NCBI GenBank assembly: GCA_025454955.1
Contig: JALONL010000015.1
Coordinates: 72,230 to 136,229 of the forward strand
Reading direction: 5' to 3'
Length of the DNA stretch: 64,000 nt
Source: Bacteroidia bacterium
Lineage (GTDB): Bacteria > Bacteroidota > Bacteroidia > Palsa-965
In this document: positions 7,172 to 59,062 of the stretch, piece by piece
Layout: each line of letters starts with the position of its first letter
Numbering within the stretch: position 1 is the stretch's first letter
The notes under the pieces: generated by a model
What the model was told of the DNA's origin: nothing
The model's input: the letters and a program-made list of their open reading frames with translations, nothing else
The model's database searches: none
Made by a program: the position numbers and the translations under genes

Positions 7172-7233
7172 AACCGTCAAAGTTAATGCGAAACCCGGGC
7201 CGAACTGCTATCTTTATACGCGGTAATCTTTTC

Positions 7234-34472: not shown

Positions 34473-37400
34473 ATGAAATCAAAATCCTTACGCAGGCTTT
34501 TTAAGCTGGTAATTGGCACTGCCATGACGGTGCTGCCAATTACGTCCGTGGCACAAGTAATTAATGTGTCCCCAATCGGTTCTCCTTGTGTTGACCCGCC
34601 GTTGTGTATAGTAAACGGCGATCTTGGTTCAATTGCCACCGGAGACATGAATTCAAATGCAGCTACAACAGTAAATGGCTGGTATGTATCACACGGGGAT
34701 CCTACCATTTTTGGTAACGATGCCCCCACAGGCAGCAATTCACGTTCGGTGTGGATGTGGTCTTACCTGCACTCGTCGGGTACACAGCGGGGTGAAGGTG
34801 TTTATACGTGTTACAATTTTCAGGAGCACCAGCAATACACCGTGTGCCTCTGGGTGCGCAACACCAATGGTGTGAGCGATGGAAACCTGCGTGTGGTGGC
34901 CGCAAGCGGGCTTACCAACATAGGCCCCACATCATGGTCGCCGATAGCCAATCCTGCTTCGCAGCAATTAATTTCAAGTGCGTTTTCGCACAGTGCCACC
35001 TGGGTACAACTGACTTACACGTTTACACCTTCGCAAAACTTCACGCAACTGTGGATCTATCCGTTTAAGCCCACACAGCCCGTAAACGGCCAGCAGTATG
35101 AGTTGCAGATAGACGATATCCGGGTTACTCCCGGAGCAGCGGGTGCAACGCCGGGAATCTCGGCCAGCCAATCTGTAATAAACTGGTGTGGCAGCAGCAC
35201 ACTTTCGGTGTCAAACGTGCCGCCGGGAGCTACAGTAACATGGGCACCGGCTATCGGACTCAGCTCTACTACCGGCGCTACCGTAACAGCCAGTCCCTGC
35301 GCAACTACAACCTACACCGCAACCATTACACCGGGTATAGGCTCAGGCTGCCCCACCTGCGGCATGACTACGCCAATGTCTTTGACGCAGCAGGTGCTGG
35401 TAGTACCTCCGGCGGTGGGCATTACAGGCAATACATCAGTACAGTGCGGCGGTACACTTAACCTTACCGCTGTGCCTTCACTTAATTGCGGCGCGGTAAC
35501 TTACTCATGGACAGGTCCCGGAGGTTTTACAGCAACCGGCCAGTCTATTTCAATTCCCAACGTAAACTCGGCACGCGCCGGCACCTATAATCTGGTGGTG
35601 AGCAATGCCAACGGCGGATGCCAGGTACCCATTTCGGTAAACGTAACCATTACCAACTGCCCGCTTTGCGAATTACCTCCCAACTGTATTCAAAATGGCA
35701 CACTTGCTTCAAACGGCACCGGCGATCTTAACTCGCCTGTAGTGGTAAGCGGCTGGAATGTTTCGCACGGTTCGCCCACGGTGTTTGGTAATGATGCACC
35801 TACCAACACCACAAACAGTTCAATATGGATGTGGTCGTACTCCGGTGCGGGCGAAGGTACCTATACCTGCTACAATTTTGAGGAGCACAAACAATACACC
35901 GTGTGTTTCTGGGTGCGCAACACCAACAGCATAGCCAACGGCGGACAGTTGTTTGTACGTGCGGTAAATGGTTTTAGCAACATTGGCCCCACAAGCACTA
36001 CTGTTCCCAACCCTGCATCGGTACAAACCATTGGTACCAACCCGGGCAACAACCAAACCTGGCAGCAAATTACCTACACGTTTACAGCCAATGCCAACTA
36101 CACACAACTCTGGTTTTATCCCCTCATGCTCAATGGCCCGGTAAACAACCAGCAGTATGAATTGCAGATAGACGATATTCGTGTAACTCCGGCCTTAAAC
36201 CCGGCTTCGTTAAGTATTTCGGCAAGCCCCACAGCTATTACCTGGTGCGGCAGCAGCACACTTTCTGTAGCGGGTGTACCTCCCGGATCAACAGTTACCT
36301 GGGCTCCCGCTCTTGGATTAAGCTCTACCACCGGCGCAACTGTAACGGCAAGTCCCTGCGCAAGCACCACATACACTGCCACCGTTACACCACCGGTACT
36401 GGCAAACTGCCCTGCCTGCACAAATGCCGGCCCGGTAACCTTAACACAACAGGTACTGGTTATTCCTCCCGCCATCGGCATTACAGGAACCACAACCCTG
36501 GACTGCAAGGACACGCTTAATCTTACGGCTGTACCTTCGCTTAATTGCAGTGCGGTATCATACGACTGGACCGGCCCCAACGGTTTTATAGCTCATGGCC
36601 AGTCTATTTCAATTGCCGGTGTAACCGAACTAAATGCCGGCGTATACACCCTCACTGTTTCAAACGCAAACGGCGGTTGTATAGAGACGATTTCTGTAAA
36701 TGTGATTATAGCGAAATGTCCGTGCGAAGCCAAACCCGAATTTAAAACCGACGGCTGCAATCCTGTTTCATTCGAGGGAGGAAACAACAGCACCTCACAG
36801 GTCATCAGCTGGTTCTGGGAATTTGGCGATGGTAACACATCGACCTTGCAAAACCCGGTAAATTTCTACGCTGCGGCAGGTTCATACGAAGTGTGTCTGA
36901 CCATTGTGGCAAAAAACTCAGATGGTGAAATCTGCTGCGAACGGGTATGTAATAAAATAGAAGTATGTGGTCCGCCCAAGTGTGGCATTGTGGCCCGTAT
37001 TCTCACATCGCCCGATAAAGCTAAACCGCTTACTGTAAACTTTACAGATGCTTCGGCCACCGTGGTTGGCGGTTCGGTTTGCTGGTATGAAATAAACTAT
37101 GGCGATGGCTCGCCCGCTTACGCCGGATCATCTTTACCTTCAAGTTACACGTACGCCACAGCCGGAAGTTATGAAGTATGCTATGAAGTTACTGTATGTA
37201 TTTATGATGCTAATGGCAACGTTAGTGAGCGGTGTACCGATAAATATTGTGAAAAAGTGGAAGTTAGCGGAAGTAAGAAATCTTCGGCAAGAATGGGCCA
37301 ATCAACAGAAACAGAAGAAACCGGTAGCATTAAAGTATTCCCCAATCCGGCAAACAACAACCTGTTTATTAATATCGAAAATATGGAACAGGCCACCGTA

Positions 37401-37559
37401 CAGATTTTCAATGTAAATGGCCAGGAAATGAGCGCTCCCACACTCACAGCCAAAAACGTATGGCAGGCCGATGTATCGGCATACAGCCCCGGCATTTATG
37501 TGGTTGTGGTAAGAGATAGCAATGGAAAAGTGGAAAGAAATGTATTCGTGAAAGAGTAG
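34473..37559 (+). CDS. T9SS-secreted protein with two tandem ~353-aa repeats, Ig-like and PKD domains and type A CTD
   Basis: Internal duplication (QQYELQIDDIRVTP twice, 1059 bp apart); PKD motifs WFWEFGDG and INYGDG; C-terminal KVFPNP...PGIYVV CTD. Confidence 0.88.
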   Translation: MKSKSLRRLFKLVIGTAMTVLPITSVAQVINVSPIGSPCVDPPLCIVNGDLGSIATGDMNSNAATTVNGWYVSHGDPTIFGNDAPTGSNSRSVWMWSYLHSSGTQRGEGVYTCYNFQEHQQYTVCLWVRNTNGVSDGNLRVVAASGLTNIGPTSWSPIANPASQQLISSAFSHSATWVQLTYTFTPSQNFTQLWIYPFKPTQPVNGQQYELQIDDIRVTPGAAGATPGISASQSVINWCGSSTLSVSNVPPGATVTWAPAIGLSSTTGATVTASPCATTTYTATITPGIGSGCPTCGMTTPMSLTQQVLVVPPAVGITGNTSVQCGGTLNLTAVPSLNCGAVTYSWTGPGGFTATGQSISIPNVNSARAGTYNLVVSNANGGCQVPISVNVTITNCPLCELPPNCIQNGTLASNGTGDLNSPVVVSGWNVSHGSPTVFGNDAPTNTTNSSIWMWSYSGAGEGTYTCYNFEEHKQYTVCFWVRNTNSIANGGQLFVRAVNGFSNIGPTSTTVPNPASVQTIGTNPGNNQTWQQITYTFTANANYTQLWFYPLMLNGPVNNQQYELQIDDIRVTPALNPASLSISASPTAITWCGSSTLSVAGVPPGSTVTWAPALGLSSTTGATVTASPCASTTYTATVTPPVLANCPACTNAGPVTLTQQVLVIPPAIGITGTTTLDCKDTLNLTAVPSLNCSAVSYDWTGPNGFIAHGQSISIAGVTELNAGVYTLTVSNANGGCIETISVNVIIAKCPCEAKPEFKTDGCNPVSFEGGNNSTSQVISWFWEFGDGNTSTLQNPVNFYAAAGSYEVCLTIVAKNSDGEICCERVCNKIEVCGPPKCGIVARILTSPDKAKPLTVNFTDASATVVGGSVCWYEINYGDGSPAYAGSSLPSSYTYATAGSYEVCYEVTVCIYDANGNVSERCTDKYCEKVEVSGSKKSSARMGQSTETEETGSIKVFPNPANNNLFINIENMEQATVQIFNVNGQEMSAPTLTAKNVWQADVSAYSPGIYVVVVRDSNGKVERNVFVKE

Positions 37560-43488: not shown

Positions 43489-43508
43489 CACACATCTGTC
43501 TATTGCCC

Positions 43509-44954
43509 ATGTATCGACTGTTTCTATTATTCAGCGTACTGTCTTTCCTCGCCCCGGCGTTAAGTTGTGCGCAAACCACTTCATCCGCGCCCGCTGCCGG
43601 GCAGCCGTGGAATTTGCAGCAGTGCATTGAGTATGCACTCACGCACAACATACAGGTGCAGCAAACGCGCCTCAATGCCGATCTGGCGCAGGCCAATTTG
43701 CAACAAAGCAAGGCCAATGTGCTGCCCAACCTCAATGCCACGGCGGCGCACAGCTACCAGTTTGGCCGGACGGTTGACCGCTTTACCAACACTTTTGCCG
43801 ACGGCACCGTGCTTTCGCAAAACTTTTTTGTGAGCAGCAACATTACTCTCTTTGCCGGCGGCCAGAACTACAATACCATACGCCAGAACCAGTATGCCGT
43901 GCAGGCCGGTCAGGCGCAGGTGGCACAAACGCAAAACGACATCAGCCTTAACGTGGCCACCGCCTACCTCAATGTGCTTTTTGCCGAAGAGCAGTTTGCC
44001 GTGGCCGAAGACCAGGTGGCACTTACGCTTACTCAGGTTGAACGCCTCCGCAAATTAGTGGATGCCGGTGCCAGCGCCAAAGGCCCGCTCCTCGACCTGC
44101 AGGCGCAGTTGGCGCAGGAAGAACTTACCCGCGTTAACTCGGGCAACAACGTCACAATGGCCTACCTGAGCCTCACCCAGCTCATGAACTTAGACAGCAC
44201 CGAAGGCTTCCGCATTGTAAAACCCGAAATGCCCATGCCCTCCGAAAACATTGCGGCCAGCTCGTCGGGACAAATTTACCAGACGGCTCTGGGCACCATG
44301 CCCATGATTAAAAAAGCCCAGCTCGACCTGCGCGGTGCCGAACGCGGACTGAAAATTGCCTACGGTGCGCTGAGTCCGCGGCTGAGTGTACAGGGCTCGC
44401 TGGGCACAGGTTACTCGGGGCTGGCGCGCGATATTCTGAGCACTTCGGTTACCGGAAACAATGCCATTGGCTTTACCTCGGCCGGCGATGTGGTGTTTGT
44501 GCCGCAATTGGCCTACGAAACACGGGTTACGCCTTACATGGATCAGTACCGCAACAACGTAAACCGTGTAATCAGTTTCCAGCTAACGGTGCCTATTTTC
44601 AACAACCTGCAAACGCACACCGCCATAACCCGCGCCCGCATACAGCAGGAAAACGCACGCCTCACACTCGAACAGCAGGAACAGCAGTTGCGCCAGCAGG
44701 TGGACAAAGCCTACACCGACGCACAGGCCGCGCTGCAACGCGTAAAAGCCTCGGAAGCCGCCCTCAACGCCGCCAACGAAGCATTCGTCTATGCGCAGAC
44801 ACGCTTTGAAGCCGGTGCCATACAGGCCATAGACTACGGCACCGCCAAAAACCGCGTGACACGCGCACAGGCCGATTTGCTGCAGGCGCGTTTCGACTAC
44901 ATTCTCAAACTCAAAGTCCTCGACTTTTATCAGGGCAAACCACTTACCTTCTGA
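43509..44954 (+). CDS. TolC-family outer-membrane efflux protein
   Basis: W.LQQCIEYAL..N; two OEP repeats; RF.AG; A..DYILKLKVLDFYQG. Confidence 0.92.
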   Translation: MYRLFLLFSVLSFLAPALSCAQTTSSAPAAGQPWNLQQCIEYALTHNIQVQQTRLNADLAQANLQQSKANVLPNLNATAAHSYQFGRTVDRFTNTFADGTVLSQNFFVSSNITLFAGGQNYNTIRQNQYAVQAGQAQVAQTQNDISLNVATAYLNVLFAEEQFAVAEDQVALTLTQVERLRKLVDAGASAKGPLLDLQAQLAQEELTRVNSGNNVTMAYLSLTQLMNLDSTEGFRIVKPEMPMPSENIAASSSGQIYQTALGTMPMIKKAQLDLRGAERGLKIAYGALSPRLSVQGSLGTGYSGLARDILSTSVTGNNAIGFTSAGDVVFVPQLAYETRVTPYMDQYRNNVNRVISFQLTVPIFNNLQTHTAITRARIQQENARLTLEQQEQQLRQQVDKAYTDAQAALQRVKASEAALNAANEAFVYAQTRFEAGAIQAIDYGTAKNRVTRAQADLLQARFDYILKLKVLDFYQGKPLTF

Positions 44955-44969
44955 TTCCAAATTCGCACC

Positions 44970-46340
44970 ATGAAACGCTTTCTGATTATCAGCGGAATTT
45001 TACTCGTCGTACTCATAGTGGTAGTGATGATTGTAAAAGGCGACGGCAGCAAGGCCATACGCGTGGCTACCGAAAAAGCCTCGCGCCGCAGCATTACCGA
45101 ACTGGTTTCGGCCAGCGGAAAAGTACAGCCCGAACAGGAAGTGAAAATTACTTCCGATGTATCGGGGCAGATTGTGGAACTGCTGGTGAAGGAAGGCGAC
45201 ACTGTGAAGAAAGGCCAGTTGCTGCTGCGCATTAATCCCAACGTATATGAATCGGCCGTGGAGCGGATGCAGGCAATGGTAAACGGTGCCCGCGCCAATC
45301 TGGCCACCAGCCAAGCGCGACTGGCCCAGTCGAAAGCACAATTGGCAAACACCGAACTGGCCTACAACCGCAACAAAAAACTGCACGACCAGAAAGCCAT
45401 TTCGGATGCCGAGTATGAAACCGCCAAAGCCCAGTACGAAAGCGCCAAAGCCGATGTACAGGCCGCAAGCGAAAGCGCCCGCAGTGCCGATTTTAACGTG
45501 AGCAGCAGTGCCGCATCGCTCAAAGAAGCCAACGAAAATTTAACGCGCACCAGCATTTACGCGCCCGTATCGGGCACCATTTCGAAATTGGCCAAACGCA
45601 AAGGCGAAAGCGTGCTGGGCAATGCGCAAATGGCCGGCGAAGTTATTTTAACCATTGCCAACCTGCTGGAAATGGAAGTGCAGGTGGATGTAAACGAAAA
45701 CGACATTCTCCGCGTTCACCTCAACGACACTGCGCTTATAGAAGTGGAAGCGCACGACAATCGCAAGTTCAAAGGCATTGTAACCGAGGTGGCCAACTCA
45801 GCCACTTCCACCGGACTCAACACCGATCAGGTCACCAATTTCTCGGTGAAAGTGCGCATACTGCGCGAGTCGTACAAAGACCTGATGAAAACCGAACGCC
45901 CCAATGAATATCCGTTTCTGCCGGGCATGTCGGCCACGGTGGATATTCAAACGCGCTCGGTGCAAAATGCCATTGCCGTGCCCATCCAATCGGTAACCAC
46001 CCGCACCGACACCGCCGCCAAAACCGGCACCGGCGAAGACTTAGCCAAAGGCAGCGATGCCGGAGGCCCCCCGCCCGCCCTGCAAACCGGCGACAAACGC
46101 GAAGCCAAAACCGAAACACCCGAGCCGATTGAGTGTGTGTTTGTACTACGCGATGGAAAGGTGAAACTGATTGCGGTAAAGACAGGTGTACAGGACAATC
46201 AGTATATTGAAATAGTTTCGGGTTTGAAGGAAGGCGATGAAGTGGTGAGTGCGCCGTTTAGTGCGATACGTACCAAGCTGTACAATGGTGCATCGGTAGA
46301 GAAAGTGTCGAAAGACGATCTGGTGGCGGATACGGAATAA
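44970..46340 (+). CDS. Efflux periplasmic adaptor (HlyD/MacA-like)
   Basis: ASGKVQP..EV.I.S.VSG.I.EL.VKEGD.V.KGQLL; APVSGTI; LPGMSA.V.I; VSGL.EGDEVV. Confidence 0.92.
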   Translation: MKRFLIISGILLVVLIVVVMIVKGDGSKAIRVATEKASRRSITELVSASGKVQPEQEVKITSDVSGQIVELLVKEGDTVKKGQLLLRINPNVYESAVERMQAMVNGARANLATSQARLAQSKAQLANTELAYNRNKKLHDQKAISDAEYETAKAQYESAKADVQAASESARSADFNVSSSAASLKEANENLTRTSIYAPVSGTISKLAKRKGESVLGNAQMAGEVILTIANLLEMEVQVDVNENDILRVHLNDTALIEVEAHDNRKFKGIVTEVANSATSTGLNTDQVTNFSVKVRILRESYKDLMKTERPNEYPFLPGMSATVDIQTRSVQNAIAVPIQSVTTRTDTAAKTGTGEDLAKGSDAGGPPPALQTGDKREAKTETPEPIECVFVLRDGKVKLIAVKTGVQDNQYIEIVSGLKEGDEVVSAPFSAIRTKLYNGASVEKVSKDDLVADTE

Positions 46341-46357
46341 TTTTAACTTAATATGCT

Positions 46358-47632
46358 ATGGAAAAATTAGTGATTACCAAGTTCGGGCAGTTGGAGAATA
46401 TCACGTTTGACGTGAAAGACTTTACTGTGCTTATTGGGCCGCAAGCGAGTGGGAAGAGTACGATAGGAAAACTAGTATATATATTCAAATCAGTATTTCA
46501 AGCATTATCTCTTTATACAGTAAATAGAATTTCTCTGAATGAAGAAATATCATTTAAAGATTTTACCTCATCTAATATTAGACAAAATCTTGACCGCTTA
46601 TTTACTTCTTCCTCATACAGGAAAAACACAAAAATAACATTCTACTATCAGTCAGATTTTTATATCGACATTGAAAATAAAGGAGATATAAATATAGTAA
46701 CGTTTTCCAGTGCTTTTGAGAGCAAATTAGACTCTATTGAAGATAAATACTATGAAATAATTAACTCAACAAAGTTCATTGAAAACTCTAAATCCAAAAA
46801 TAGATTTGAATTTATTGTGGATTTTTTATGGGATTTCATTCCAAGTGAATTTGAATTTAGTAGTAGTAAATATCAAGACGTTTTATATATACCATCAGGA
46901 AGGAGTATAGTATCAGTATCGCCAGACTTAACCCATGATTTTAAAAACATACATAACAATCCAATAATTGATCATTTTATACAGAGAGTGTCGATTTACA
47001 GAAATGAATTTTCTAATAATTTAGAATATTTAGCCAAAAAAAACAATATCAACCTACAAGAAAACCTTATAATCCAAACTGCAATAAATAAAATAAAATC
47101 AATACTTTCTGGAGAATTTAAATATGACAATAATGGCGGTGAAATAACATCGGGAGATGCCAAAGTAATGATCAGTCAGGCATCTTCCGGTCAACAAGAA
47201 TCATTATGGATATTACTATTAATATATATACAATTTATTTACAACAAATCACAGAATTGCTTCTTGATAATTGAAGAACCGGAAGCAAATTTATTCCCAA
47301 AAGCTCAAGTAGAAATTGCGGAATTAATTGCACTACTTGCCAATAATAGCAATACAAAACTATTCATCACAACACACAGTCCGTATGTTTTAGCCAGTTT
47401 TAACAATCTTATTTATGCATATCAAAAAAGCAGGATAGATCCGGTAAAGACCGACAAAATTGTCCCCAAATCACTTTGGCTGAATATTGAGCATGTTTAT
47501 GCCGGTTATCTCGAAAATGGCAAGTTGGAGGACATTATTGACACCGAAATAAATCAGATTAAAAACGAGATGGTGGACACTGCTTCTAGGAAAGTGAATA
47601 ATAGCTATGATCAGTTATTTGATATAGATTAA
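46358..47632 (+). CDS. ABC-type ATPase (AAA_15/AAA_21-like), AT-rich
   Basis: Walker A GPQASGKS, signature-like ASSGQQ, Walker B LIIEEPE, H-loop ITTHSPY; no TM partner. Confidence 0.88.
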   Translation: MEKLVITKFGQLENITFDVKDFTVLIGPQASGKSTIGKLVYIFKSVFQALSLYTVNRISLNEEISFKDFTSSNIRQNLDRLFTSSSYRKNTKITFYYQSDFYIDIENKGDINIVTFSSAFESKLDSIEDKYYEIINSTKFIENSKSKNRFEFIVDFLWDFIPSEFEFSSSKYQDVLYIPSGRSIVSVSPDLTHDFKNIHNNPIIDHFIQRVSIYRNEFSNNLEYLAKKNNINLQENLIIQTAINKIKSILSGEFKYDNNGGEITSGDAKVMISQASSGQQESLWILLLIYIQFIYNKSQNCFLIIEEPEANLFPKAQVEIAELIALLANNSNTKLFITTHSPYVLASFNNLIYAYQKSRIDPVKTDKIVPKSLWLNIEHVYAGYLENGKLEDIIDTEINQIKNEMVDTASRKVNNSYDQLFDID

Positions 47633-47642
47633 ATATATATAT

Positions 47643-48110
47643 ATGGCACCTAAACAGACAGATTGTTTTTTATTTGGAAAAGATTGGGTTGACGTAAAAA
47701 ACAGCCAGAATATTTCATTAAAAGAAAAAAAAGAAAGTTCCATCTATCAAATAAAGAATCCTGATCTTATCGATCTTTATATATACAAGGTAGATGGCGG
47801 AATAAGTAAGTCAAAAAATGAAAAATGTGACTATCTTATACTGAAATGTACTACAGAAAAGCCTGATGCTTATTTTATTGAACTAAAGGGAAATGATTTA
47901 TTGAAAGCCGTTGACCAGATTACCGCTACTATTGATAATTACAAGAATGATCTGAAAGAACACAGGATTTATGCCCGGATAGTGGTTAGTAGAGTCATAT
48001 CTACACACATTTATGATAGCCGTTATAAAAAACTGAATGTCAAGATAAAGGAGCTTCGTGGTGATCTGAAAACACAAAGCCAGAAAATGATTGAAACAAT
48101 CCGCGCATAA
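47643..48110 (+). CDS. Small PD-(D/E)xK-like putative nuclease, AT-rich
   Basis: 155 aa with KCDYL...YFIELKG...AVDQI pattern; 10 bp downstream of the ATPase. Confidence 0.6.
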   Translation: MAPKQTDCFLFGKDWVDVKNSQNISLKEKKESSIYQIKNPDLIDLYIYKVDGGISKSKNEKCDYLILKCTTEKPDAYFIELKGNDLLKAVDQITATIDNYKNDLKEHRIYARIVVSRVISTHIYDSRYKKLNVKIKELRGDLKTQSQKMIETIRA

Positions 48111-48115
48111 ACAAT

Positions 48116-48808
48116 ATGCTCATCCTCCACATAGAAACCGCCACCGGCGTATGCGCTGCAGCCCTCTCCGATGGCTCAAAACTGCTGGCCAGACGCACGG
48201 TAAACGAAGCCAACGTACACGCCGAAAAACTCACACTTTTTTGCGAAGAAATAATGCGCGAAACCGGCGTACAGTTTTCGCAGTTGAATGCGGTGTGTGT
48301 GAGCAAAGGGCCGGGATCGTACACCGGATTGCGCATAGGCGTATCGGCGGCAAAGGGATTTTGTTATGCACTAAACATTCCGCTGCTGGCCGTGAATACG
48401 CTGGAGGCATTGGCCTACGGCATGAAAGCCGAAGCAGAGCCGGGCACTTTGCTTTGCCCCATGCTGGATGCGCGGCGCATGGAAGTGTATTATGCCGTGT
48501 ACAACGACAAACTGGAAGAAGTACAGCCCACTGAGCCGTTGGTAGTGGAGGAAAATAGTTTTGCCGCGCTGCTCGAAAAACAGCCGGTACTTTTTGCGGG
48601 CGACGGAATGCCCAAATGCCGGACAATATTGGAAGCATATACCAATGCCCGTTTCAGCACGGTTTTGCCTGCGGCGGAGCATTTGATTGAACCTGCGCTG
48701 AAAAAACTGGCTGCCGGCGATACGGAAGATATTGCGTGGTTTGAGCCGTTTTACCTGAAAACGTTTCAGCCCGGGCCGATGCGTTCGTCGGGGGGCGGGG
48801 GCGCGTAA
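48116..48808 (+). CDS. tsaB: tRNA threonylcarbamoyladenosine biosynthesis protein TsaB
   Basis: LHIETAT, HAEKL, VSKGPGSYTGLRIG, DARRMEVY, EPFYLK. Confidence 0.95.
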   Translation: MLILHIETATGVCAAALSDGSKLLARRTVNEANVHAEKLTLFCEEIMRETGVQFSQLNAVCVSKGPGSYTGLRIGVSAAKGFCYALNIPLLAVNTLEALAYGMKAEAEPGTLLCPMLDARRMEVYYAVYNDKLEEVQPTEPLVVEENSFAALLEKQPVLFAGDGMPKCRTILEAYTNARFSTVLPAAEHLIEPALKKLAAGDTEDIAWFEPFYLKTFQPGPMRSSGGGGA

Positions 48809-48843: not shown

Positions 48844-48958
48844 CGGGATTGCAGCGGAAACCCGGCAGCAGTAAAACAGCAGTGCCCAACTCTTCGAGGT
48901 TTTCGGAAACCTCGAAGAGTTGGGGTTTATTATTTTTTCTGCTGCCGCGTTGCAGCGG
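48844..48958. repeat. REP-like nested-palindrome element, family B copy 1
   Basis: Inner 40-bp palindrome 48885-48924 (CCCAACTCTTCGAGGTTTTC/GGAAACCTCGAAGAGTTGGG) within outer IR GGCAGCAG..AAAA/TTTT..CTGCTGCC. Confidence 0.85.
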
Positions 48959-49023: not shown

Positions 49024-49050
49024 CGAAGGATTTTTCCGGTAAACTCGTCT
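49024..49050 (+). promoter_or_regulatory. Putative ECF promoter P1 (sigma gene, autoregulation)
   Basis: CGAAGG-N15-TCGTCT. Confidence 0.7.
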
Positions 49051-49105
49051 CACCCGTGAGACGAGTTTTAGTTATCTTTTCATTCCCAAACCACACCGCT
49101 GCCGC

Positions 49106-49654
49106 TTGAATCTGGAGGAGCTTTATCATCAGTATAAAAACATGGTGTATAACCTGGCGCTCCACTATGTGCAAAACGTGGAGGACGCAGAGGAAATTAC
49201 ACAGGATGTTTTTCTGGCCGTGCATCAGTCGATAGACGGGTTTGAGCAGCGCGCGGCGGTGAGTACGTGGATGTACCGGATTACGATAAACAAATCGCTT
49301 GACTTTATTCGCAGCCGCAAGCGCAAGAAACGGTTTGCGTTTATTACCTCGCTGTTTGGCGAAGACGGTCGCGAAAACGTGCAGATATACTCGAATTTTA
49401 ACCACCCGGGCGCGGCACTCGAACAGAAAGAGGCCATGCAACGCATTTTTGCCTGCATCAATTCGTTGCCCGACAGCCAGAAAACGGCGTTGATACTGAT
49501 GAAAATAGAAGGCCGCAGCCAGCAGGAAACCGCCGAAATTATGAATACCACGGCAAAGGCCGTTGAATCGCTGGTGCAGCGGGCCAAGGTGAGTCTGGTA
49601 AAAAAATTAGAGGCGGCCGAAGGAAATGCTAACGGAAGTCGTTTAACCCAATAA
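49106..49654 (+). CDS. ECF RNA polymerase sigma-70 factor
   Basis: TTG start; DAEEITQDVF, TWMYRITINKSLD (region 2), LPDSQKTA..L...EG.S..ETAEIM (region 4). Confidence 0.93.
   Translation: MNLEELYHQYKNMVYNLALHYVQNVEDAEEITQDVFLAVHQSIDGFEQRAAVSTWMYRITINKSLDFIRSRKRKKRFAFITSLFGEDGRENVQIYSNFNHPGAALEQKEAMQRIFACINSLPDSQKTALILMKIEGRSQQETAEIMNTTAKAVESLVQRAKVSLVKKLEAAEGNANGSRLTQ
49618..49644 (+). promoter_or_regulatory. Putative ECF promoter P2 (inside the 3' end of the sigma gene)
   Basis: CGAAGG-N15-TCGTTT, 21 bp before ATG 49666. Confidence 0.7.
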
Positions 49655-49911: not shown

Positions 49912-50368
49912 AAGCAAACTCTTCGTCGCACTCATTGTACTGCTGCTGCTGGCCAACGTGGTGCTGCTGGTGTTTGCCTTTGGCGACCGCCCCGGGTCCC
50001 GCGAACGACGTGGCGCACTGAGAGAGCGGATAATTAATCAACTGCATTTTGACCAGGCACAGGCCGACAAATACGAACTGCTGATACACGAACACCGCAG
50101 TACGGTAGATGCCAAAAGCGACGAAATTTCGCAACTGCGCCGGCAAATGTATGCCGCTCTCAAAACCGGCGACAGTGCCGCAAACGACTCGCTACGCCAC
50201 GAAATTGGCAAACTGCAGATTGAAACAGAACTGGTGCATTACAACCATTTCAAAGGCATACGCGCCCTGTGCCGCCCCGATCAGTTACCGGCCTTCGACA
50301 CCATGCTGCCCGAATTAGCCAAAGCATTCAGCCATCAGAAACCTCCGCGACCGCCGCAAGGCCACTAA
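49904..50368 (+). CDS. Spy/CpxP-like (periplasmic heavy-metal sensor) helical protein
   Basis: N-terminal anchor LLLLANV, helical body, HF..IRALC.P.Q...F motif; start at MNKSKL. Confidence 0.7.
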   Translation: MNKSKLFVALIVLLLLANVVLLVFAFGDRPGSRERRGALRERIINQLHFDQAQADKYELLIHEHRSTVDAKSDEISQLRRQMYAALKTGDSAANDSLRHEIGKLQIETELVHYNHFKGIRALCRPDQLPAFDTMLPELAKAFSHQKPPRPPQGH

Positions 50369-50370
50369 CC

Positions 50371-51054
50371 ATGAAAACGTTTTACCTGCTGCTGCTTTGT
50401 ATTTGCTGCCGCGTGGCCGTTACAGCCCACACGGTGCAGGTAAATTTTACGCCGGTGTTTGGCTCACAGATACTGAAGCCAGGACAAACCCATTACCACA
50501 CTTCCACTGCCGACAGCATACGCATTGAGGTTTGCCGCTTCTACATTTCGCACATAAAGTTTATGCACGATAAAAATGTGGTGTTTGATGCCGCCGCACA
50601 GGTGTATCTCATAGACATGGCCGATACGGTTTCGCAGCAACTGCAATTTACTTTGCCCGATGGCGTAAACTGGAATGCCATTTCGTTTTGCCTCGGCACC
50701 GACAGTGCGACCAATGTATCGGGCGCGCTGGGCGGAAGCCTCGACCCGGCAAACGGCATGTACTGGGCCTGGCAGAGCGGCTACATAAATTTTAAACTCG
50801 AAGGCAGTTCGCCGCGATGCACCGCGCGCAAGCATGAATTTCAGTTTCACTTAGGCGGATATGCCAGCCCGTTTGCCACTTTGCAGCAGATTCGTTTGGA
50901 TTGTGTACAAAGCAGCAACATAAATGTGGTGTGCGATACCGCAAAGTTTTTCGATTACACAGATGTAAAAACCACCGCAGCCATAATGTCGCCGGGAGCG
51001 CGGGCGGTGGAATTGTCGGTTGCGGCGGCGGGGTTGTTTGCAGTGAAGCCATGA
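50371..51054 (+). CDS. MbnP-like protein
   Basis: Signal peptide; FYISHI, LG.DS..N.SG...G.LDP.NGMYWAWQSGYINFKLEG with WxW motif (50764-50772); FHLGGY. Confidence 0.8.
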   Translation: MKTFYLLLLCICCRVAVTAHTVQVNFTPVFGSQILKPGQTHYHTSTADSIRIEVCRFYISHIKFMHDKNVVFDAAAQVYLIDMADTVSQQLQFTLPDGVNWNAISFCLGTDSATNVSGALGGSLDPANGMYWAWQSGYINFKLEGSSPRCTARKHEFQFHLGGYASPFATLQQIRLDCVQSSNINVVCDTAKFFDYTDVKTTAAIMSPGARAVELSVAAAGLFAVKP

Positions 51055-52103
51055 GGAAAAGCACACTCATACTCGGCCTGCTTGGCGTGGTGATACTGGC
51101 TTTCAGAAGCTGGAATCCGGGGCCGGCAACGCCTGCGCATTTTCCGAAGCCGGTGTATGATTTTGCACGCAATCCGCTGCGCAGCGAAACCGTGCAGCTT
51201 GGCCGTGCGCTGTTTTACGATCCGCTGCTGTCGGTAAACAACGGTATTTCCTGCGCCTCGTGCCACTCGCAGTACAACGGCTTTGCACATGCCGACCATG
51301 CCCTGAGCCACGGCATTTTCGATTCAATAGGCACACGCAATGCTCCGGCGCTGATGAACCTTGCCTGGCAGAAGAGTTTTATGTGGGATGGTGCCGTTAA
51401 CCACCTCGATGTGCAGGCACTGGCACCCATTACACACCCCAAAGAAATGGGCGAAACGCTGAACGGTGTAATTAAAAAACTCAATGCCTCGGTCATTTAT
51501 CCTTCGCTGTTTTACAATGCCTTTGGCGACTCTGCCATTACCGGTCAGCGTGTGTTGCTGGCTCTTTCGCAGTTTCAGCTTACGCTCATTTCAGCCAATG
51601 CAAAGTACGACAGTGTGAAAGCAGGCAAAGCCGTTTTTACACCTCAGCAGCAACGCGGCTATGCCCTGTTTAAAACGCACTGCAACACCTGCCACCGCGA
51701 ACCGATGTTTACCACAGGCGCATTCAGCAGCAACGGTTTACCGGTAGATACTACGCTGAACGATTACGGCCGCGGTGCCATTACACACCGCAGCGCCGAC
51801 TCGCTGCTGTTTAAAATTCCCACCCTGCGCAATATTGAGTTTACCTACCCTTACATGCACGACGGGCGTTTCACACGGCTTTCGCAGGTACTCAATCATT
51901 ACACCTCGGGCATTGTGCCGCATAAAAACCTGCCAGCCGAACTTCAAAAACCCATCTCACTCAGCCCCGAAGAAAAGGTAGATCTCACCGCATTCCTGCT
52001 CACACTCACCGATAAAAAATTCCTTTACAATCCCGCCTATTCCTATCCGAAAGAAATTTTTTCGCGAGGCCGAAGGAATCCGGCTTCACTCTCGTCTCAG
52101 TAA
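51051..52103 (+). CDS. Di-haem cytochrome c peroxidase, MbnH/MauG-like
   Basis: Two CxxCH motifs (CASCH, CNTCH), LGRALFYDP.LS, RNAPAL.NLAW, FKIPTLRNI, PYMHDGRF; start at MRKSTL (51051). Confidence 0.9.
   Translation: MRKSTLILGLLGVVILAFRSWNPGPATPAHFPKPVYDFARNPLRSETVQLGRALFYDPLLSVNNGISCASCHSQYNGFAHADHALSHGIFDSIGTRNAPALMNLAWQKSFMWDGAVNHLDVQALAPITHPKEMGETLNGVIKKLNASVIYPSLFYNAFGDSAITGQRVLLALSQFQLTLISANAKYDSVKAGKAVFTPQQQRGYALFKTHCNTCHREPMFTTGAFSSNGLPVDTTLNDYGRGAITHRSADSLLFKIPTLRNIEFTYPYMHDGRFTRLSQVLNHYTSGIVPHKNLPAELQKPISLSPEEKVDLTAFLLTLTDKKFLYNPAYSYPKEIFSRGRRNPASLSSQ
52071..52097 (+). promoter_or_regulatory. Putative ECF promoter P3 (inside the 3' end of the peroxidase gene)
   Basis: CGAAGG-N15-TCGTCT, 22 bp before ATG 52120. 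Confidence 0.7.
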
Positions 52104-56594: not shown

Positions 56595-56966
56595 CTATGT
56601 GGTTGAATTTATTTTCCACGAGTTTATAAGTAAGATAATTATTACCCCGGCCATAGCACCAGCCCATATTTGAAGTAAATCATTCATAGGCATTGCTTCT
56701 TGATTTTGCTGATACCAAACCATTCCAGTAAGGCAAATTAAGGGTAGCAACGTTACAAATAAAGGCAATGGCTGAAATGATTTCATAAATTTTGAGAGTA
56801 GTAAAAATAATCCAATCCCACCTATGAAGGAGGGGTAAATCATAGGCAAATTCGGTAATGACAGTGGCCAAATCATAAAGCAAAACGTAATTAACACTGA
56901 TGATACCAAAAGTACCACGTATCCAATAGGTGAATGTGAAGCTGGAGAAATCGTTTTTGTTTTCAT
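56595..56966 (-). CDS. Small four-TM membrane protein
   Basis: Hydrophobic ORF; start reassigned to MKTKTI to avoid overlap. Confidence 0.6.
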   Translation of the reverse strand: MKTKTISPASHSPIGYVVLLVSSVLITFCFMIWPLSLPNLPMIYPSFIGGIGLFLLLSKFMKSFQPLPLFVTLLPLICLTGMVWYQQNQEAMPMNDLLQIWAGAMAGVIIILLINSWKINSTT

Positions 56967-57015
56967 GTGCTTTAATAATGAGGTTAGTATTTCTTGATAT
57001 ATTTTTTTATGTATG

Positions 57016-57483
57016 TCAAGGCGTTTTATGAAAGTATAATTCACAATAAACGCTATCAGTATTTTGAGGAGCTTGGTTTCTATACCCTCTCGTTCTTAAT
57101 GCAAGTGAATCATCTGAAATATACTTTATGTAAAAAAGTGAATCACTAAATTCAGAACAGGTATCATAACTTAAAATAATTCCACCATTAATCTCCCTAT
57201 ATGTTGTGTGATAAATTTCACATTCTGTGATCGAATTACCGACAACCGCATTCATTGCAACAACCGCATTCCCTTGACTTGGTAGGTATAAAAAGCGTCC
57301 CGTTCTATACATTAAAGGATAGTCATTGCCGCCAATTTCATATTTACCACCTTTATAGTACCAGAATTTATGAAGACGATTAATAGCTGGTGTTGAGTTT
57401 GTTTGTATTGGCTCTACTTCATCATTTCGTTTGCATCCAAACAGAATTATGGTGAGCATGAATGATACTATGATATATTTCAT
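57016..57483 (-). CDS. Lipoprotein (lipocalin-like fold possible)
   Basis: Lipobox LFGC followed by KR; FWYY.GG.Y, Y.S.DSL.LRTRG motifs. Confidence 0.75.
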   Translation of the reverse strand: MKYIIVSFMLTIILFGCKRNDEVEPIQTNSTPAINRLHKFWYYKGGKYEIGGNDYPLMYRTGRFLYLPSQGNAVVAMNAVVGNSITECEIYHTTYREINGGIILSYDTCSEFSDSLFYIKYISDDSLALRTRGYRNQAPQNTDSVYCELYFHKTP

Positions 57484-57540
57484 TGTTGTATTTGTTGAAG
57501 GTTTAAAAAAATAATTAGGTTTTACGCCCGTATTTCAATC

Positions 57541-58007
57541 TTAATTTTCAGCATAGAAGTAGTACTCATAATATATGCTATCAGGATTATTATTCATATT
57601 ATTATGAGCAATACCGCGTGTTCGTAATACTAACGAGTCTTGAGATAAATAAGTGACATATAGTAATGAATCTGTTAATCCTGGTAGGCAAGCATTATAG
57701 CGCAAATAAATTTTATCGTTGAATCTTCGATATGTCGTTTGATACACTGAACAACCCGACGGTGTATTTGTAAATAATTCGGCTAAACCAACATTGGCTA
57801 TACCTTCAGAAGTCAGATGCAAGAATTGATTTGGGGGATTTAAAAGAGTATCTGTGTAATTTCCCCATTCGTAATGTCCTCCTGTATAATACCAGAAATT
57901 GCATATCAAATCAGGAACGGGAGCAGGAGTTGATAACGAGGGTTCAATTTCTTCTGTTCGCCTACAACTGATTTGTAAAGCGATTGGGTTAGTGATAATT
58001 TAGGCAT
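57541..58007 (-). pseudogene. Paralogue of the 57016-57483 lipoprotein with a broken signal peptide
   Basis: Frame contains LQISCRRTEEIEP...FWYYTGGHY...LRTRG, but an in-frame TAA (58002-58000) lies 12 codons upstream of the Cys; the nearest ATG (58007) is out of frame by one base. Confidence 0.6.
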
Positions 58008-58066
58008 GGGCGTGGCCGGGGATGATAGTTCGTCCCATTTTTAATCATGATATGGTTTGTTATTGG

Positions 58067-59005
58067 TTAGTTACTCCAGTAGATTTTTTGAGAGAAATGG
58101 AGACCTGATGGATGGGTTAGTTTAATCAAATACACTCCTGTATTTTGAAGAGAGTTTGGAAACGATGAACCCGGTTTCACATCATTAATTTTTGAAATGC
58201 TTCTTCCTGTGAGATCAAAAAACTCTATACTTATTGGTGTTTGATCGTTTAGGTTTGATTGTAAAGTGAATTGATTTTGATTTACTGAAAGCAAATAAGG
58301 ATTAAAAGTATTTATTGTTGATGCTGAATTTTGAACAGAATTAGGAGGTGGCATTTGTGAACAATTATTGCCATAAATCTGTACACCGTTTTGACTATTA
58401 CAAACTAAGCTATAAGATGGGTCGATTGAACATGAAATTATGCTTATGGGTTCTTCAATTGAGCCAACACCTTCAATTAAATAAAGTGAAGATGGATAAG
58501 CCTGATTATTTGATGTAAGGTAAAATCGTTTTGTATATCCGAATCCAAGTAAAACGGAATCAATATAACTAACCTGAAAGCCATATACACCAGTGCATAC
58601 ACTTGAATTAATGAACATATATATCATGTCGCCGAGGTTTAAATTGAAATTGTATAATGGTATGTCTGCATTTCCGTTCCACATTAAAACTACTTTATTT
58701 GGTATTTCCTCTCTCAAACAATAAATAGTGTCTAAAATCGGATTACCATTTTGCTTAATAATTTTCTTGTAGCCAATATTATTTATAGTTGTGTCACCTA
58801 TTGTTGTGTATGAATAATAATTATTAAGATTAAAAAATGTAACATTTACATTCCAATAAGATTCATTTAAAAAGGGGTGATATACAGATGTCTGAGATAT
58901 ACCCAAGTTTTGAAATAGTCCCAAAAGTAGAACCAATAAGCTGGTGTTTAAAATTGATCTCTTTTTAGACTCAATAAGTATATTAGAATTATAAAATAAG
59001 TCCAT
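58067..59005 (-). CDS. Secreted protein with degenerate T9SS type A CTD
   Basis: GDTTINN.GYKKI, LYNFNL.LGD, LIEGVGS motifs; tail FDLTGR...GVYLIKL. Confidence 0.75.
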   Translation of the reverse strand: MDLFYNSNILIESKKRSILNTSLLVLLLGLFQNLGISQTSVYHPFLNESYWNVNVTFFNLNNYYSYTTIGDTTINNIGYKKIIKQNGNPILDTIYCLREEIPNKVVLMWNGNADIPLYNFNLNLGDMIYMFINSSVCTGVYGFQVSYIDSVLLGFGYTKRFYLTSNNQAYPSSLYLIEGVGSIEEPISIISCSIDPSYSLVCNSQNGVQIYGNNCSQMPPPNSVQNSASTINTFNPYLLSVNQNQFTLQSNLNDQTPISIEFFDLTGRSISKINDVKPGSSFPNSLQNTGVYLIKLTHPSGLHFSQKIYWSN

Positions 59006-59062
59006 CTTTTTGTTAATTGAATTAATAAAATATTGGATTTACTTAATAAGAAGATCGTTATA

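What the first reader, a model, noticed from the sequence alone, without database searches (positions are those of the whole stretch)
46358..48110. Candidate unnamed two-gene anti-phage system: ABC-ATPase plus small PD-(D/E)xK protein
The sequence shows a soluble ABC-type ATPase (GPQASGKS, ASSGQQ, IIEEPE, TTHSPY) paired with a 155-aa protein carrying CDY...FIELKG. It is established that ABC-ATPase plus nuclease pairs form defence systems such as PARIS (AriA/TOPRIM AriB), Septu (PtuA/HNH PtuB) and AbiL/RloB-type pairs. The effector here looks like neither TOPRIM nor HNH, and I do not recognise the combination as a named system. By inference it is an ATPase-gated nuclease toxin released on sensing a phage protein, possibly targeting tRNA or DNA.
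Basis: partly seen in the sequence, partly recalled or inferred. Interest (0 to 1): 0.75.

Follow-up and report, generated by a model that had tools for sequence, protein, structure and literature searches.

The report
WonAB-type ATPase-nuclease phage defence pair
The two genes are real and do look like an anti-phage system, but it already has a name: they are a divergent Bacteroidota-type copy of WonAB, an ABC-ATPase plus small nuclease pair shown in 2025 to stop phage infection in Vibrio cholerae.

Summary
46358-47632 (+) encodes a 424-aa soluble OLD-type ABC ATPase. Ten bases downstream, 47643-48110 (+) encodes a 155-aa protein with the motif D51...C62-D63...E80-x-K82...Q92.

The claim that the system is unnamed does not hold. 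Both proteins are homologues of V. cholerae WonA and WonB (Adams et al. 2025, PMC12137116). The ATPase is 30% identical to WonA over 371 aa (E 3e-30). The small protein is 40% identical to WonB over 85 aa (E 7e-12; profile match 99.2% probability). Profiles built only from published WonA/WonB hits pick out exactly these two ORFs in the window. All five residues whose mutation abolishes WonAB defence are conserved. The same family is PADLOC's candidate PDC-M29 and, according to PMC12137116, the "OLD-ABC ATPase + novel REase" operon of Krishnan et al. 2020.

The small-protein family is large (2251 cluster representatives). In 74 of 74 testable genome loci it sits directly behind its ATPase.

Here the pair is a 1.77-kb low-GC insertion between an efflux adaptor gene and tsaB. 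Distant relatives have the empty site.

One new detail: compared with a syntenic congener, ATPase residues 46-275 (the Insert 1/2 region, the presumed sensor) are essentially unrelated, while both ends are 70-91% identical.

Verdict: a new member of a known kind, of modest interest.

The parts
46341..48115 (+). The whole 1.77-kb low-GC two-gene insertion between the efflux adaptor (MFP) gene and tsaB.
   Evidence: GC is 31-38% against about 52% in the flanks. In 16 of 16 more distant Bacteroidota-like metagenome loci that carry the MFP gene, it is followed directly by tsaB, with a gap of about 35-160 nt.
46358..47632 (+). wonA-like gene: a 424-aa soluble OLD-type ABC ATPase.
   Evidence: Pfam AAA_15 E 3.7e-26 and AAA_21 E 3.2e-18. 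PADLOC PDC-M29A E 3.9e-21 and PD-T4-4_A E 1.4e-23. 30% identity over 371 aa to V. cholerae WonA, E 3e-30. 254.9 bits, E 3.9e-73, against a profile of published WonA hits.
46436..46459 (+). Walker A motif GPQASGKS (aa 27-34). K33 corresponds to WonA K34.
   Evidence: WonA K34A abolishes defence (PMC12137116).
46493..47182 (+). Insert 1/2 region of the ATPase (aa 46-275), GC 27%, hyperdivergent. It is the presumed infection-sensing module and contains R182 (= WonA R182).
   Evidence: Against the syntenic congener L001 this region shows 7-27% aa identity per 25-aa bin (43% in bin 226-250) and 52.6% nt identity. aa 1-45 are about 90% identical and aa 276-424 are 70% identical.
47180..47197 (+). 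ABC signature motif ASSGQQ (aa 275-280).
   Evidence: aligned to WonA ASSGQQ.
47267..47284 (+). Walker B motif IIEEPE (aa 304-309). E307 corresponds to WonA E300.
47369..47386 (+). H-loop TTHSPY (aa 338-343). H340 corresponds to WonA H333.
47405..47629 (+). C-terminal extension of the ATPase (aa ~350-424), the presumed docking surface for the nuclease.
   Evidence: The best stretch of the PDC-M29A match covers aa 299-424. The last 50 aa are 79-84% identical to the L001 allele. In WonAB, the AlphaFold3 model of PMC12137116 places WonB on the dimerised C-terminal extensions. The complex was not modelled here.
47643..48110 (+). wonB-like gene: a 155-aa divergent PD-(D/E)xK (restriction-endonuclease-fold) protein.
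   Evidence: 40% identity over 85 aa to V. cholerae WonB, E 7e-12. Family profile against WonB: 99.2% probability, E 1e-19. 94.8 bits, E 9.6e-25, against a profile of published WonB hits. AF2 model pLDDT 93.6. The weak top Foldseek hits are mostly REase-fold nucleases.
47829..47888 (+). Catalytic core, from D63 (47829-47831) to E80-L-K82 (47880-47888). K82 corresponds to WonB K71.
   Evidence: D63, E80, K82 and Q92 are invariant in 104 family members. K82 aligns with WonB K71, and K71A abolishes both defence and toxicity. In the model D63 immediately precedes strand 64-68, E80 lies in strand 75-81, K82 follows it and Q92 lies in helix 86-100.
44970..46340 (+). Left flank: RND/efflux membrane-fusion (periplasmic adaptor) gene. 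It is context, not part of the system.
   Evidence: Pfam families recorded for the identical gene in L006. 90.6% aa identity to L001.
48116..48808 (+). Right flank: tsaB (TsaD-family Pfam hit), 5 nt after the small gene. It is context.
   Evidence: 85.5% aa identity to L001.
48885..48924 (+). First strong intrinsic-terminator-like hairpin downstream (18 pairs). None lies between 43503 and the end of tsaB, so the pair may be co-transcribed with its neighbours.
   Evidence: a consensus scan only.

Best explanation
The locus is a WonAB-family two-gene abortive-infection defence system carried on a small, horizontally acquired low-GC insertion. By homology with V. cholerae WonAB, the likely mechanism runs as follows. 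The ATPase forms a head-to-head ABC dimer. It probably holds the small nuclease on its C-terminal extensions and monitors an infection cue through its variable Insert 1/2 region. ATP binding or hydrolysis is needed to license the PD-(D/E)xK nuclease. Once active, the nuclease shuts down translation, probably by cutting an rRNA or tRNA rather than bulk DNA. The infected cell stops growing and the phage cannot progress to structural-protein assembly.

Shown here: homology of both proteins, conservation of every experimentally essential residue, the nuclease-like fold, strict conservation of the gene pairing, and the insertion and empty-site structure.

Inferred from the V. cholerae work: complex formation, the abortive-infection phenotype, translation arrest and the RNA target. 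That the insert region is the sensor is my own inference.
For: Direct homology:
- ATPase against V. cholerae WonA: 30% identity over 371 aa, E 3e-30.
- Small protein against WonB: 40% over 85 aa, E 7e-12. Family profile against WonB: 99.2% probability, E 1e-19, 123 aligned columns.
- HMMs built only from the published Supplementary Table 4 sequences (7 WonB, 6 WonA) hit only these two ORFs among 255 window ORFs: 94.8 bits (E 9.6e-25) and 254.9 bits (E 3.9e-73).
- With V. cholerae WonA or WonB as the query, the window proteins rank in the middle of the published hits.

Essential residues: WonA K34, R182, E300 and H333 and WonB K71 correspond to K33, R182, E307, H340 and K82 here.

PADLOC: V. 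cholerae WonA and WonB hit PDC-M29A and PDC-M29B (E 3.7e-23 and 1.2e-9). 61 of 104 small-family members hit PDC-M29B, and the window ATPase hits PDC-M29A at E 3.9e-21.

Fold: the AF2 model has pLDDT 93.6 and the strand-strand-helix-strand core order expected for D...ExK...Q. The top Foldseek hits are mostly REase-fold nucleases: MUS81, XPF, FokI, N.BspD6I, NucS and BamHI.

Pairing: 74 of 74 genome loci with room upstream carry a homologous ATPase directly upstream, usually overlapping by 4 nt (scored as gap -3) or separated by a few bases. The hosts span Bacteroidota, Cyanobacteria, Firmicutes, Planctomycetota and others.

Insertion: low GC and empty sites in relatives.

Context: some immediate neighbours of family loci match defence models, including PDC-S28, PLD-helicase, ShosA, SspH, HEC-01A and MADS genes.

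Mechanism: taken from PMC12137116, sections 7-9.
Against: - There is no experimental evidence for this locus or for any Bacteroidota homologue.
- The window small protein itself does not reach any PADLOC or Pfam model. Foldseek gives no match with E<=1e-3, so the nuclease assignment rests on motif, topology, weak fold hits and homology to WonB.
- The WonB substrate and the WonA trigger are still unknown even in V. cholerae.
- The locus is not in a defence island. The nearest recognisable defence system, a type II R-M, is 20 kb away.
- The neighbourhood defence count across family loci has no matched control.
- The ATPase insert region is unlike that of any sampled relative. Specificity, or even function, of this allele therefore cannot be extrapolated.
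Confidence: 0.85

Rival explanations
1. It is a PD-T4-4-like or restriction-like system in which the ATPase-nuclease complex cuts invading phage DNA directly, with no abortive translation shut-off.
For: The ATPase hits PD-T4-4_A as strongly as PDC-M29A (E 1.4e-23 against 3.9e-21). PD-T4-4 is also an ABC ATPase plus PD-(D/E)xK pair. Most PD-(D/E)xK enzymes, and the weak Foldseek neighbours found here, act on DNA.
Against: The small protein has no PD-T4-4_B hit, and only 2 of 104 family members hit it faintly. The validated homologue WonAB leaves genomic DNA intact, allows phage DNA replication and blocks translation.
Confidence: 0.1
2. It is a selfish addiction or toxin-antitoxin-like module, or a decaying remnant, that persists at this site without providing phage defence.
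For: It is a small, low-GC, horizontally acquired two-gene cassette. WonB is toxic when overproduced. No other defence genes adjoin it in the window.
Against: Both ORFs are intact with all catalytic residues. The pair is held at the same site in two congeneric lineages whose flanks differ by about 15-20% at nucleotide level. In V. cholerae, WonA is required for WonB toxicity rather than neutralising it, which argues against a simple TA logic. The strict pairing across phyla implies function.
Confidence: 0.04
3. It has a housekeeping role tied to its neighbours, such as efflux or tRNA t6A modification by TsaB, or acts as a RecF/SbcC-like repair ATPase-nuclease.
For: The intergenic gaps are tight (17, 10 and 5 nt). 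The genes are co-oriented, and no terminator is predicted until after tsaB. There is a weak SMC_N/RecF-type Pfam hit.
Against: MFP and tsaB are directly adjacent, without the pair, in 16 of 16 more distant relatives. Homologous pairs sit in unrelated contexts, for example after a GntP permease gene in L004 and in varied neighbourhoods in L009-L088. The GC content marks the pair as foreign.
Confidence: 0.01

Closest known systems
WonAB (V. cholerae WASA-1 prophage; Adams et al., Nat Microbiol 2025, PMC12137116)
   Same: - Same two-gene order and sizes: an ATPase of roughly 420 aa or more followed by a nuclease of about 140-155 aa.
- Both proteins are homologous.
- Same OLD-type ABC motifs, with the essential K, R, E and H residues conserved.
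- Same D...ExK...Q nuclease motif, with the essential lysine conserved.
- The published WonAB hit list already includes Bacteroidota such as Runella, Paraflavitalea soli, Chryseobacterium lactis and Bacteroides xylanisolvens.
   Different: - Only 30% (A) and 40% over 85 aa (B) identity to the V. cholerae proteins.
- Chromosomal mini-insertion between housekeeping genes rather than prophage cargo downstream of a regulator.
- The ATPase insert region is unlike that of any sampled relative (best about 26%).
- No functional data exist for this branch.
PADLOC candidate system PDC-M29 (PADLOC-DB v2.0.0)
   Same: V. cholerae WonA and WonB, 61 of 104 family members, and the window ATPase all hit the PDC-M29A or PDC-M29B models. 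The 72%-identical orthologue of the window small protein hits PDC-M29B at E 4.3e-4.
   Different: The window small protein itself scores below E=1 against PDC-M29B. A PADLOC run would probably leave this locus uncalled, or would label only the ATPase, whose top hit is a generic 'AriA' model.
'OLD-ABC ATPase + novel REase' operon of Krishnan, Burroughs, Iyer & Aravind, NAR 2020 (as cited in PMC12137116)
   Same: According to PMC12137116, homologues of this operon encompass all WonAB homologues and occur in 0.96% of genomes. [quoted passage not shown]
   Different: I could not read the primary paper or test against its alignments. The link is through PMC12137116 Supplementary Tables 4 and 5.
PD-T4-4 (Vassallo et al. 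2022) and the PADLOC HEC-02 and PDC-M47 models
   Same: PD-T4-4 and HEC-02 pair an ABC ATPase with a PD-(D/E)xK-superfamily nuclease (NERD in HEC-02). PDC-M47 is linked here only through weak HMM hits. The ATPase hits PD-T4-4_A (E 1.4e-23), PDC-M47A (E 2.1e-16) and HEC-02A (E 1.3e-12).
   Different: The B proteins are different families. No hit for the window protein, and only 1-8 of 104 family members give weak hits. Insert and C-terminal regions of the ATPases differ.
PARIS (AriA/AriB), Septu (PtuA/PtuB), Gabija (GajA/GajB), AbiL, OLD
   Same: All use an OLD-type ABC ATPase sensor coupled to a nuclease effector. Several give an abortive outcome by RNA cleavage (PARIS AriB and P2 OLD cleave tRNA; literature).
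   Different: Their effectors are TOPRIM (AriB, GajA, OLD), HNH (PtuB) or RloB-like. None is present here. The 424-aa ATPase has no fused nuclease domain, and the partner is a PD-(D/E)xK protein.

Membership tests
WonAB | Two-gene operon: an ABC ATPase gene immediately followed by a small nuclease gene on the same strand. | tested here: met
   The gap is 10 nt in the window. The same arrangement occurs in 74 of 74 family loci with room upstream.
WonAB | WonA: an OLD-type ABC ATPase with Walker A, signature, Walker B and H-loop motifs. K34, R182, E300 and H333 are essential. | tested here: met
   K33, R182, E307 and H340 align with them. Pfam AAA_15 and AAA_21 match. The Q-loop and D-loop were not mapped individually.
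WonAB | WonB: a variant PD-(D/E)xK fold with clustered acidic residues and catalytic lysine K71. | tested here: met
   K82 aligns with K71. D63, E80, K82 and Q92 are invariant in 104 members. The AF2 topology (pLDDT 93.6) fits the REase core. Foldseek support is weak only (best E 4.6e-3). Spatial clustering of the residues could not be measured because no coordinates were available.
WonAB | Significant sequence similarity of both proteins to the published WonA and WonB hit set (MacSyFinder, Supplementary Table 4). | tested here: met
   Profiles built from the published sequences score 254.9 and 94.8 bits. The window proteins rank mid-list when V. cholerae WonA or WonB is the query. The authors' own HMMs and MacSyFinder model were not available.
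WonAB | WonB docks on the dimerised C-terminal extensions of WonA. | not tested
   A C-terminal extension is present (aa ~350-424) and is conserved with L001.
WonAB | Both genes are needed for anti-phage abortive infection. WonB toxicity needs an active WonA. Translation is arrested. | not testable with these tools
   These are wet-lab phenotypes, known only for V. cholerae WonAB.
PADLOC PDC-M29 | Adjacent hits to both the PDC-M29A and PDC-M29B HMMs. | tested here: inconclusive
   A is hit at E 3.9e-21. B is not hit by the window protein at E<=1. B is hit by its 72% orthologue (E 4.3e-4), by V. cholerae WonB (E 1.2e-9) and by 61 of 104 family members.
PD-T4-4 | Hits to both PD-T4-4_A and PD-T4-4_B. 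| tested here: not met
   A is hit partially (E 1.4e-23, aa 211-382). There is no B hit for the window protein, and 2 of 104 family members give faint hits.
PARIS | AriA ABC ATPase plus AriB TOPRIM (DUF4435) nuclease. | tested here: not met
   Only the generic AriA (AAA_15-like) model matches. There is no TOPRIM or AriB match in either protein.
Septu | PtuA ATPase plus PtuB HNH nuclease. | tested here: not met
   There are weak PtuA hits only (E 7e-11), and no HNH domain or PtuB hit.
Gabija / class 1-2 OLD | ATPase fused to a C-terminal TOPRIM domain (plus a UvrD-like helicase in Gabija). | tested here: not met
   The protein is 424 aa with no TOPRIM domain. GajA and Old models match only around the Walker B/H-loop region. 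No helicase gene is adjacent.

The most novel reading that the evidence does not exclude
WonA-type sensors may diversify by cassette-like replacement of the Insert 1/2 region (aa 46-275) within an otherwise conserved frame, which consists of the ATPase core and the effector-docking C-terminus. Two congeneric genomes carry, at the same chromosomal site, alleles whose sensor modules are essentially unrelated, while the nuclease partner stays 72% identical. If so, this pair of alleles is a natural specificity-swap experiment. It could reveal what WonA senses, which is still unknown because no phage escape mutants could be isolated in V. cholerae.
Probability: 0.4. Interest if true: 0.5.

Novelty: new member of a known kind. 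Interest (0 to 1): 0.25.

Why it matters
The main value is corrective. The locus should be annotated as a WonAB-family (PDC-M29-type) defence system, not reported as a new one.

It also shows a practical gap in detection. The small effector of this Bacteroidota branch escapes Pfam, NCBIfam, PADLOC and PDB sequence searches. The ATPase's best PADLOC hit is a generic "AriA" model. Automated pipelines will therefore either miss the system or mislabel it as PARIS-like.

The mosaic ATPase is the one new lead. Its ends are conserved and its insert region is unrelated between two syntenic congeners. This points to where specificity may reside in a family whose trigger is unknown, and it suggests a simple chimera experiment.

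Tried and rejected
- The word-index homologue search with the small protein returned only 4 relatives, which at first suggested a very rare protein. The exhaustive profile search showed a large family, so rarity was rejected.
- AF2 with 4 sequences gave an unusable model, pLDDT 48. Repeating it with 104 sequences gave pLDDT 93.6.
- Foldseek against PDB and BFVD gave no hit with E<=1e-3. The weak hits are used only as consistency evidence.
- PDB sequence searches with the protein and with the family profile found nothing.
- The genome scan with the 104-sequence alignment failed because it had no conserved stretch. It worked with 14 closer sequences.
- The IMG/VR scan found no viral copies of this branch. 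tblastn found one unannotated 'Bacteriophage sp.' contig and one mobilizable Muribaculaceae plasmid, so there is little evidence that this branch is phage-borne.
- The TsaB scan for an empty site found only distant relatives (40-49% identity), with no strain-level presence/absence.
- 'PDC-M29' occurs in no searchable paper. Krishnan et al. 2020 is not held.
- The sigma-70 promoter scan is not meaningful for a Bacteroidota-like host and was not used.
- PARIS, Septu, Gabija and AbiL membership were considered and rejected because the effector type is absent.
Full report
**1. What is in the sequence**

A 424-aa protein is encoded at 46358-47632 (+). A 155-aa protein is encoded at 47643-48110 (+), 10 nt downstream. 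The quoted motifs are all present. In the ATPase these are Walker A GPQASGKS (aa 27-34), signature ASSGQQ (275-280), Walker B IIEEPE (304-309) and H-loop TTHSPY (338-343). In the small protein they are C62-D63-Y64 and F78-I-E80-L-K82-G83. The pair occupies a sharp GC trough, 31-38% against about 52% in the flanks. The ATPase matches Pfam AAA_15 (E 3.7e-26) and AAA_21 (E 3.2e-18). Its only PDB sequence relative is an OLD-family nuclease, matched around the Walker B/H-loop region. The small protein has no hit in Pfam, NCBIfam, PADLOC, PHROGs or PDB sequences.

**2. The small protein belongs to a large family that is always paired with the ATPase**

A word-index search found only four relatives. 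An exhaustive profile search of 1.84 billion cluster representatives found 2251 at E<=1e-3 and 908 at E<=1e-10, nearly all 140-165 aa long. In an alignment of 104 members, D63, E80, K82 and Q92 are invariant. N39, D51, C62, L65, L81, G83, A89 and R112 are nearly so.

With that alignment, AlphaFold2 gives a confident model (pLDDT 93.6, pTM 0.89). D63 immediately precedes strand 64-68. E80 lies in strand 75-81, and K82 follows it. Q92 is in helix 86-100, and R112 is in strand 108-115. This is the beta-beta-alpha-beta order of a PD-(D/E)xK core, preceded by a four-stranded N-terminal sheet.

Foldseek finds nothing with E<=1e-3. Its best weak hits are mostly restriction-endonuclease-fold nucleases: MUS81, XPF, FokI, N.BspD6I, NucS/EndoMS, BamHI and PaqCI. 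Single family members give faint Pfam hits to HSDR_N, SduA_C and NucS_C. The fold assignment is therefore reasonable but divergent.

In 80 genome loci recovered with the family, every locus with sequence upstream (74 of 74) has a homologue of the window ATPase directly upstream on the same strand. Usually the two genes overlap by 4 nt (scored as gap -3) or are separated by a few bases. The hosts include Bacteroidota, Cyanobacteria, Firmicutes, Planctomycetota, Desulfobacterota and Campylobacterota, plus one archaeal MAG contig. The ATPase itself has more than 4800 relatives of similar length at about 34% identity.

**3. It is a WonAB homologue**

Scanning the 104 family members against PADLOC showed 61 hitting the candidate model PDC-M29B. 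The window ATPase hits PDC-M29A at E 3.9e-21, with the best stretch covering the C-terminal extension.

A literature search on the related PD-T4-4 system led to Adams et al. 2025 (PMC12137116), who describe WonAB from the V. cholerae WASA-1 prophage. WonA is an OLD-type ABC ATPase and WonB is a variant PD-(D/E)xK nuclease. Both are required for defence against phage ICP1. Defence is abolished by WonA K34A, R182A, E300A or H333A and by WonB K71A. Their Supplementary Table 4 prints the sequences of the WonAB hits.

Direct comparisons with those sequences gave the following results.
- The window small protein is 40% identical to V. cholerae WonB over 85 aa (E 7e-12), and K82 aligns with K71.
- The 104-member family profile aligns to WonB at 99.2% probability, E 1e-19, over 123 columns.
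- The ATPase is 30% identical to WonA over 371 aa (E 3e-30). K33, R182, E307 and H340 align with K34, R182, E300 and H333.
- Profiles built solely from the published hits (7 WonB, 6 WonA) pick out only these two ORFs among 255 window ORFs, with 94.8 and 254.9 bits.
- With V. cholerae WonA or WonB as the query, the window proteins rank in the middle of the published hits, which already include Runella, Paraflavitalea soli, Chryseobacterium lactis, Bacteroides xylanisolvens and Geobacillus.
- V. cholerae WonA and WonB themselves hit PDC-M29A and PDC-M29B (E 3.7e-23 and 1.2e-9), so PDC-M29 and WonAB cover the same family.
- PMC12137116 states that WonAB falls within the 'OLD-ABC ATPase + novel REase' operon class of Krishnan et al. 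2020, found in 0.96% of genomes. I could not open that paper.

**4. How it most likely works**

Everything in this section is taken from the V. cholerae work. WonAB protects at low MOI and arrests growth at high MOI, which is lysis-independent abortive infection. Phage DNA replication proceeds nearly normally, but capsid assembly fails. WonB overproduction is toxic only when an ATPase-competent WonA is present, so this is not a simple toxin-antitoxin pair. Genomic DNA stays intact while translation stops, and the authors suggest an rRNA or tRNA target. WonB is Lon-labile. AlphaFold3 places WonB on the dimerised C-terminal extensions of WonA. The trigger is unknown, and no escape phages were obtained.

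For the window locus, homology, the catalytic residues, the fold and the pairing are shown here. Complex formation, ATP-dependent licensing, translation arrest and the defence phenotype are inferred.

**5. Genomic setting**

The pair is packed between an efflux operon and tsaB. The operon is OEP 43503-44954 and MFP 44970-46340, and tsaB is at 48116-48808. The gaps are 17 and 5 nt, and no terminator-like hairpin is predicted until 48885-48924.

A syntenic congener (L001-L003) has an orthologous pair at the same site. Identical copies occur in three other metagenome samples. A 39%-identical pair sits in an unrelated context after a GntP permease gene (L004).

In 16 of 16 more distant Bacteroidota-like metagenome loci that retain OEP-MFP-tsaB or MFP-tsaB, MFP is followed directly by tsaB. 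The 1.77-kb module is therefore an insertion.

It is not part of a defence island. The nearest recognisable defence genes are a low-GC type II R-M pair at 25450-27872. Among 128 nearest-neighbour ORFs of 33 family loci, a minority match defence or candidate models strongly: PDC-S28, PLD-helicase, PDC-S23, ShosA, SspH, HEC-01A and MADS genes. This suggests co-localisation, but I had no matched control.

No copies of this branch turned up in IMG/VR. One unannotated phage-labelled contig and one mobilizable plasmid carry a relative.

**6. One new observation: a mosaic ATPase**

Between the window and L001, the flanking proteins are 85-91% identical and the small protein is 72% identical. The ATPase is only 45% identical, and the divergence is localised.

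| Segment | aa identity to L001 | nt identity to L001 | GC in window |
|---|---|---|---|
| Flanking genes (OEP, MFP, tsaB) | 85-91% | 80-86% | 0.53-0.56 |
| ATPase aa 1-45 | about 90% | 84% | 0.39 |
| ATPase aa 46-275 | 7-27% per 25-aa bin (one bin 43%) | 52.6% | 0.27 |
| ATPase aa 276-424 | 70% | 71% | 0.33 |
| Small gene | 72% | 76% | 0.33 |

The divergent stretch is the region between Walker A and the signature motif, where ABC ATPases carry Inserts 1 and 2.

The window's insert region is no closer to its syntenic orthologue than to any other family member; its best match is about 26% identity, E 5e-11. The L001 insert is typical of the family (34%, E 1e-40).

Across 143 other ATPase pairs with C-terminal identity of 60-80%, median insert identity is 54% and the 5th percentile is 38%. 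The window-L001 pair, at 22%, is lower than all of them. Only three other pairs, from Saprospiraceae and Chitinophagales MAGs, come close (23-30%).

This fits replacement of the insert module by recombination with an unsampled allele, or extreme diversifying selection on the presumed sensor. The published suggestion is that inserts set specificity in ABC-ATPase defence systems. The two explanations cannot be separated with the data in hand.

**7. Verdict**

The functional inference is largely right. The novelty claim is refuted. This is a new, divergent member of the known WonAB / PDC-M29 / 'OLD-ABC ATPase + novel REase' family. Its small effector is missed by standard profile libraries. Interest is modest and lies mainly in the annotation lesson and in the insert-region mosaicism as a handle on the still-unknown trigger.

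Noticed in passing
window 25450-27872 (+): A second low-GC island (37-40% GC) encodes a type II restriction-modification pair. The 304-aa ORF hits PADLOC REase_II at E 1.5e-100. The overlapping 504-aa ORF hits Eco57I/N6_Mtase methylase models.
   Followed up: partly
window 56595-60187 (-): A third low-GC island (31-39% GC) carries five minus-strand ORFs of 149, 155, 122, 312 and 374 aa. None has a Pfam, PADLOC or PHROGs hit apart from a sub-threshold PrgI match. Its nature is unexplained.
   Followed up: partly
window 33307-35000: Another GC dip (38-42%). The 192-aa ORF at 33307-33885 (-) has no family hit, and the neighbouring 153-aa ORF is DUF2147. The 1028-aa ORF at 34473-37559 was not examined.
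   Followed up: no
window 46493-47182 compared with L001 8817-9545: The ATPase insert region (aa 46-275) is essentially unrelated between two syntenic congeners, although the gene ends and the flanks are conserved. Similar mosaicism appears in L012/L035, L044/L065 and L025/L044.
   Followed up: yes
window 46358-47632: The ATPase's top PADLOC hit is a generic 'AriA' model (PDLC02979, E 4.8e-33) whose length and matched range mirror Pfam AAA_15. V. cholerae WonA behaves the same way. This could cause mislabelling as PARIS, although no AriB is present.
   Followed up: partly
small protein family: The word-index protein search returned 4 relatives, whereas the exhaustive HMM search returned 2251. 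Apparent rarity in the fast search was an artefact of low word sharing in a short, divergent family.
   Followed up: yes
L037 (CAZMYQ010000092.1, 2.6 kb): A complete ATPase-plus-small-gene pair lies on a short contig binned as an 'uncultured archaeon' MAG. This could be a genuine archaeal copy or a mis-binned contig.
   Followed up: no
L004 6414-8178: In this distant homologous pair, the called ATPase and small genes overlap by 53 nt (6414-7733 and 7681-8178), not by the few bases seen elsewhere. The start of the small gene may be mis-called.
   Followed up: no
window 48885-48924 and 49041-49068 (+): Two strong terminator-like hairpins (18 and 12 pairs) lie between tsaB and the ECF sigma-factor gene. 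None was predicted within the OEP-MFP-wonAB-like-tsaB run.
   Followed up: no
window 50269-52103 and downstream: According to the Pfam families recorded for the identical contig L006, an ECF sigma factor (49106-49654) is followed by an MbnP-like protein, a MauG/cytochrome-c peroxidase and a YHYH protein with a T9SS Por_Secre_tail. This is consistent with a Bacteroidota host.
   Followed up: no
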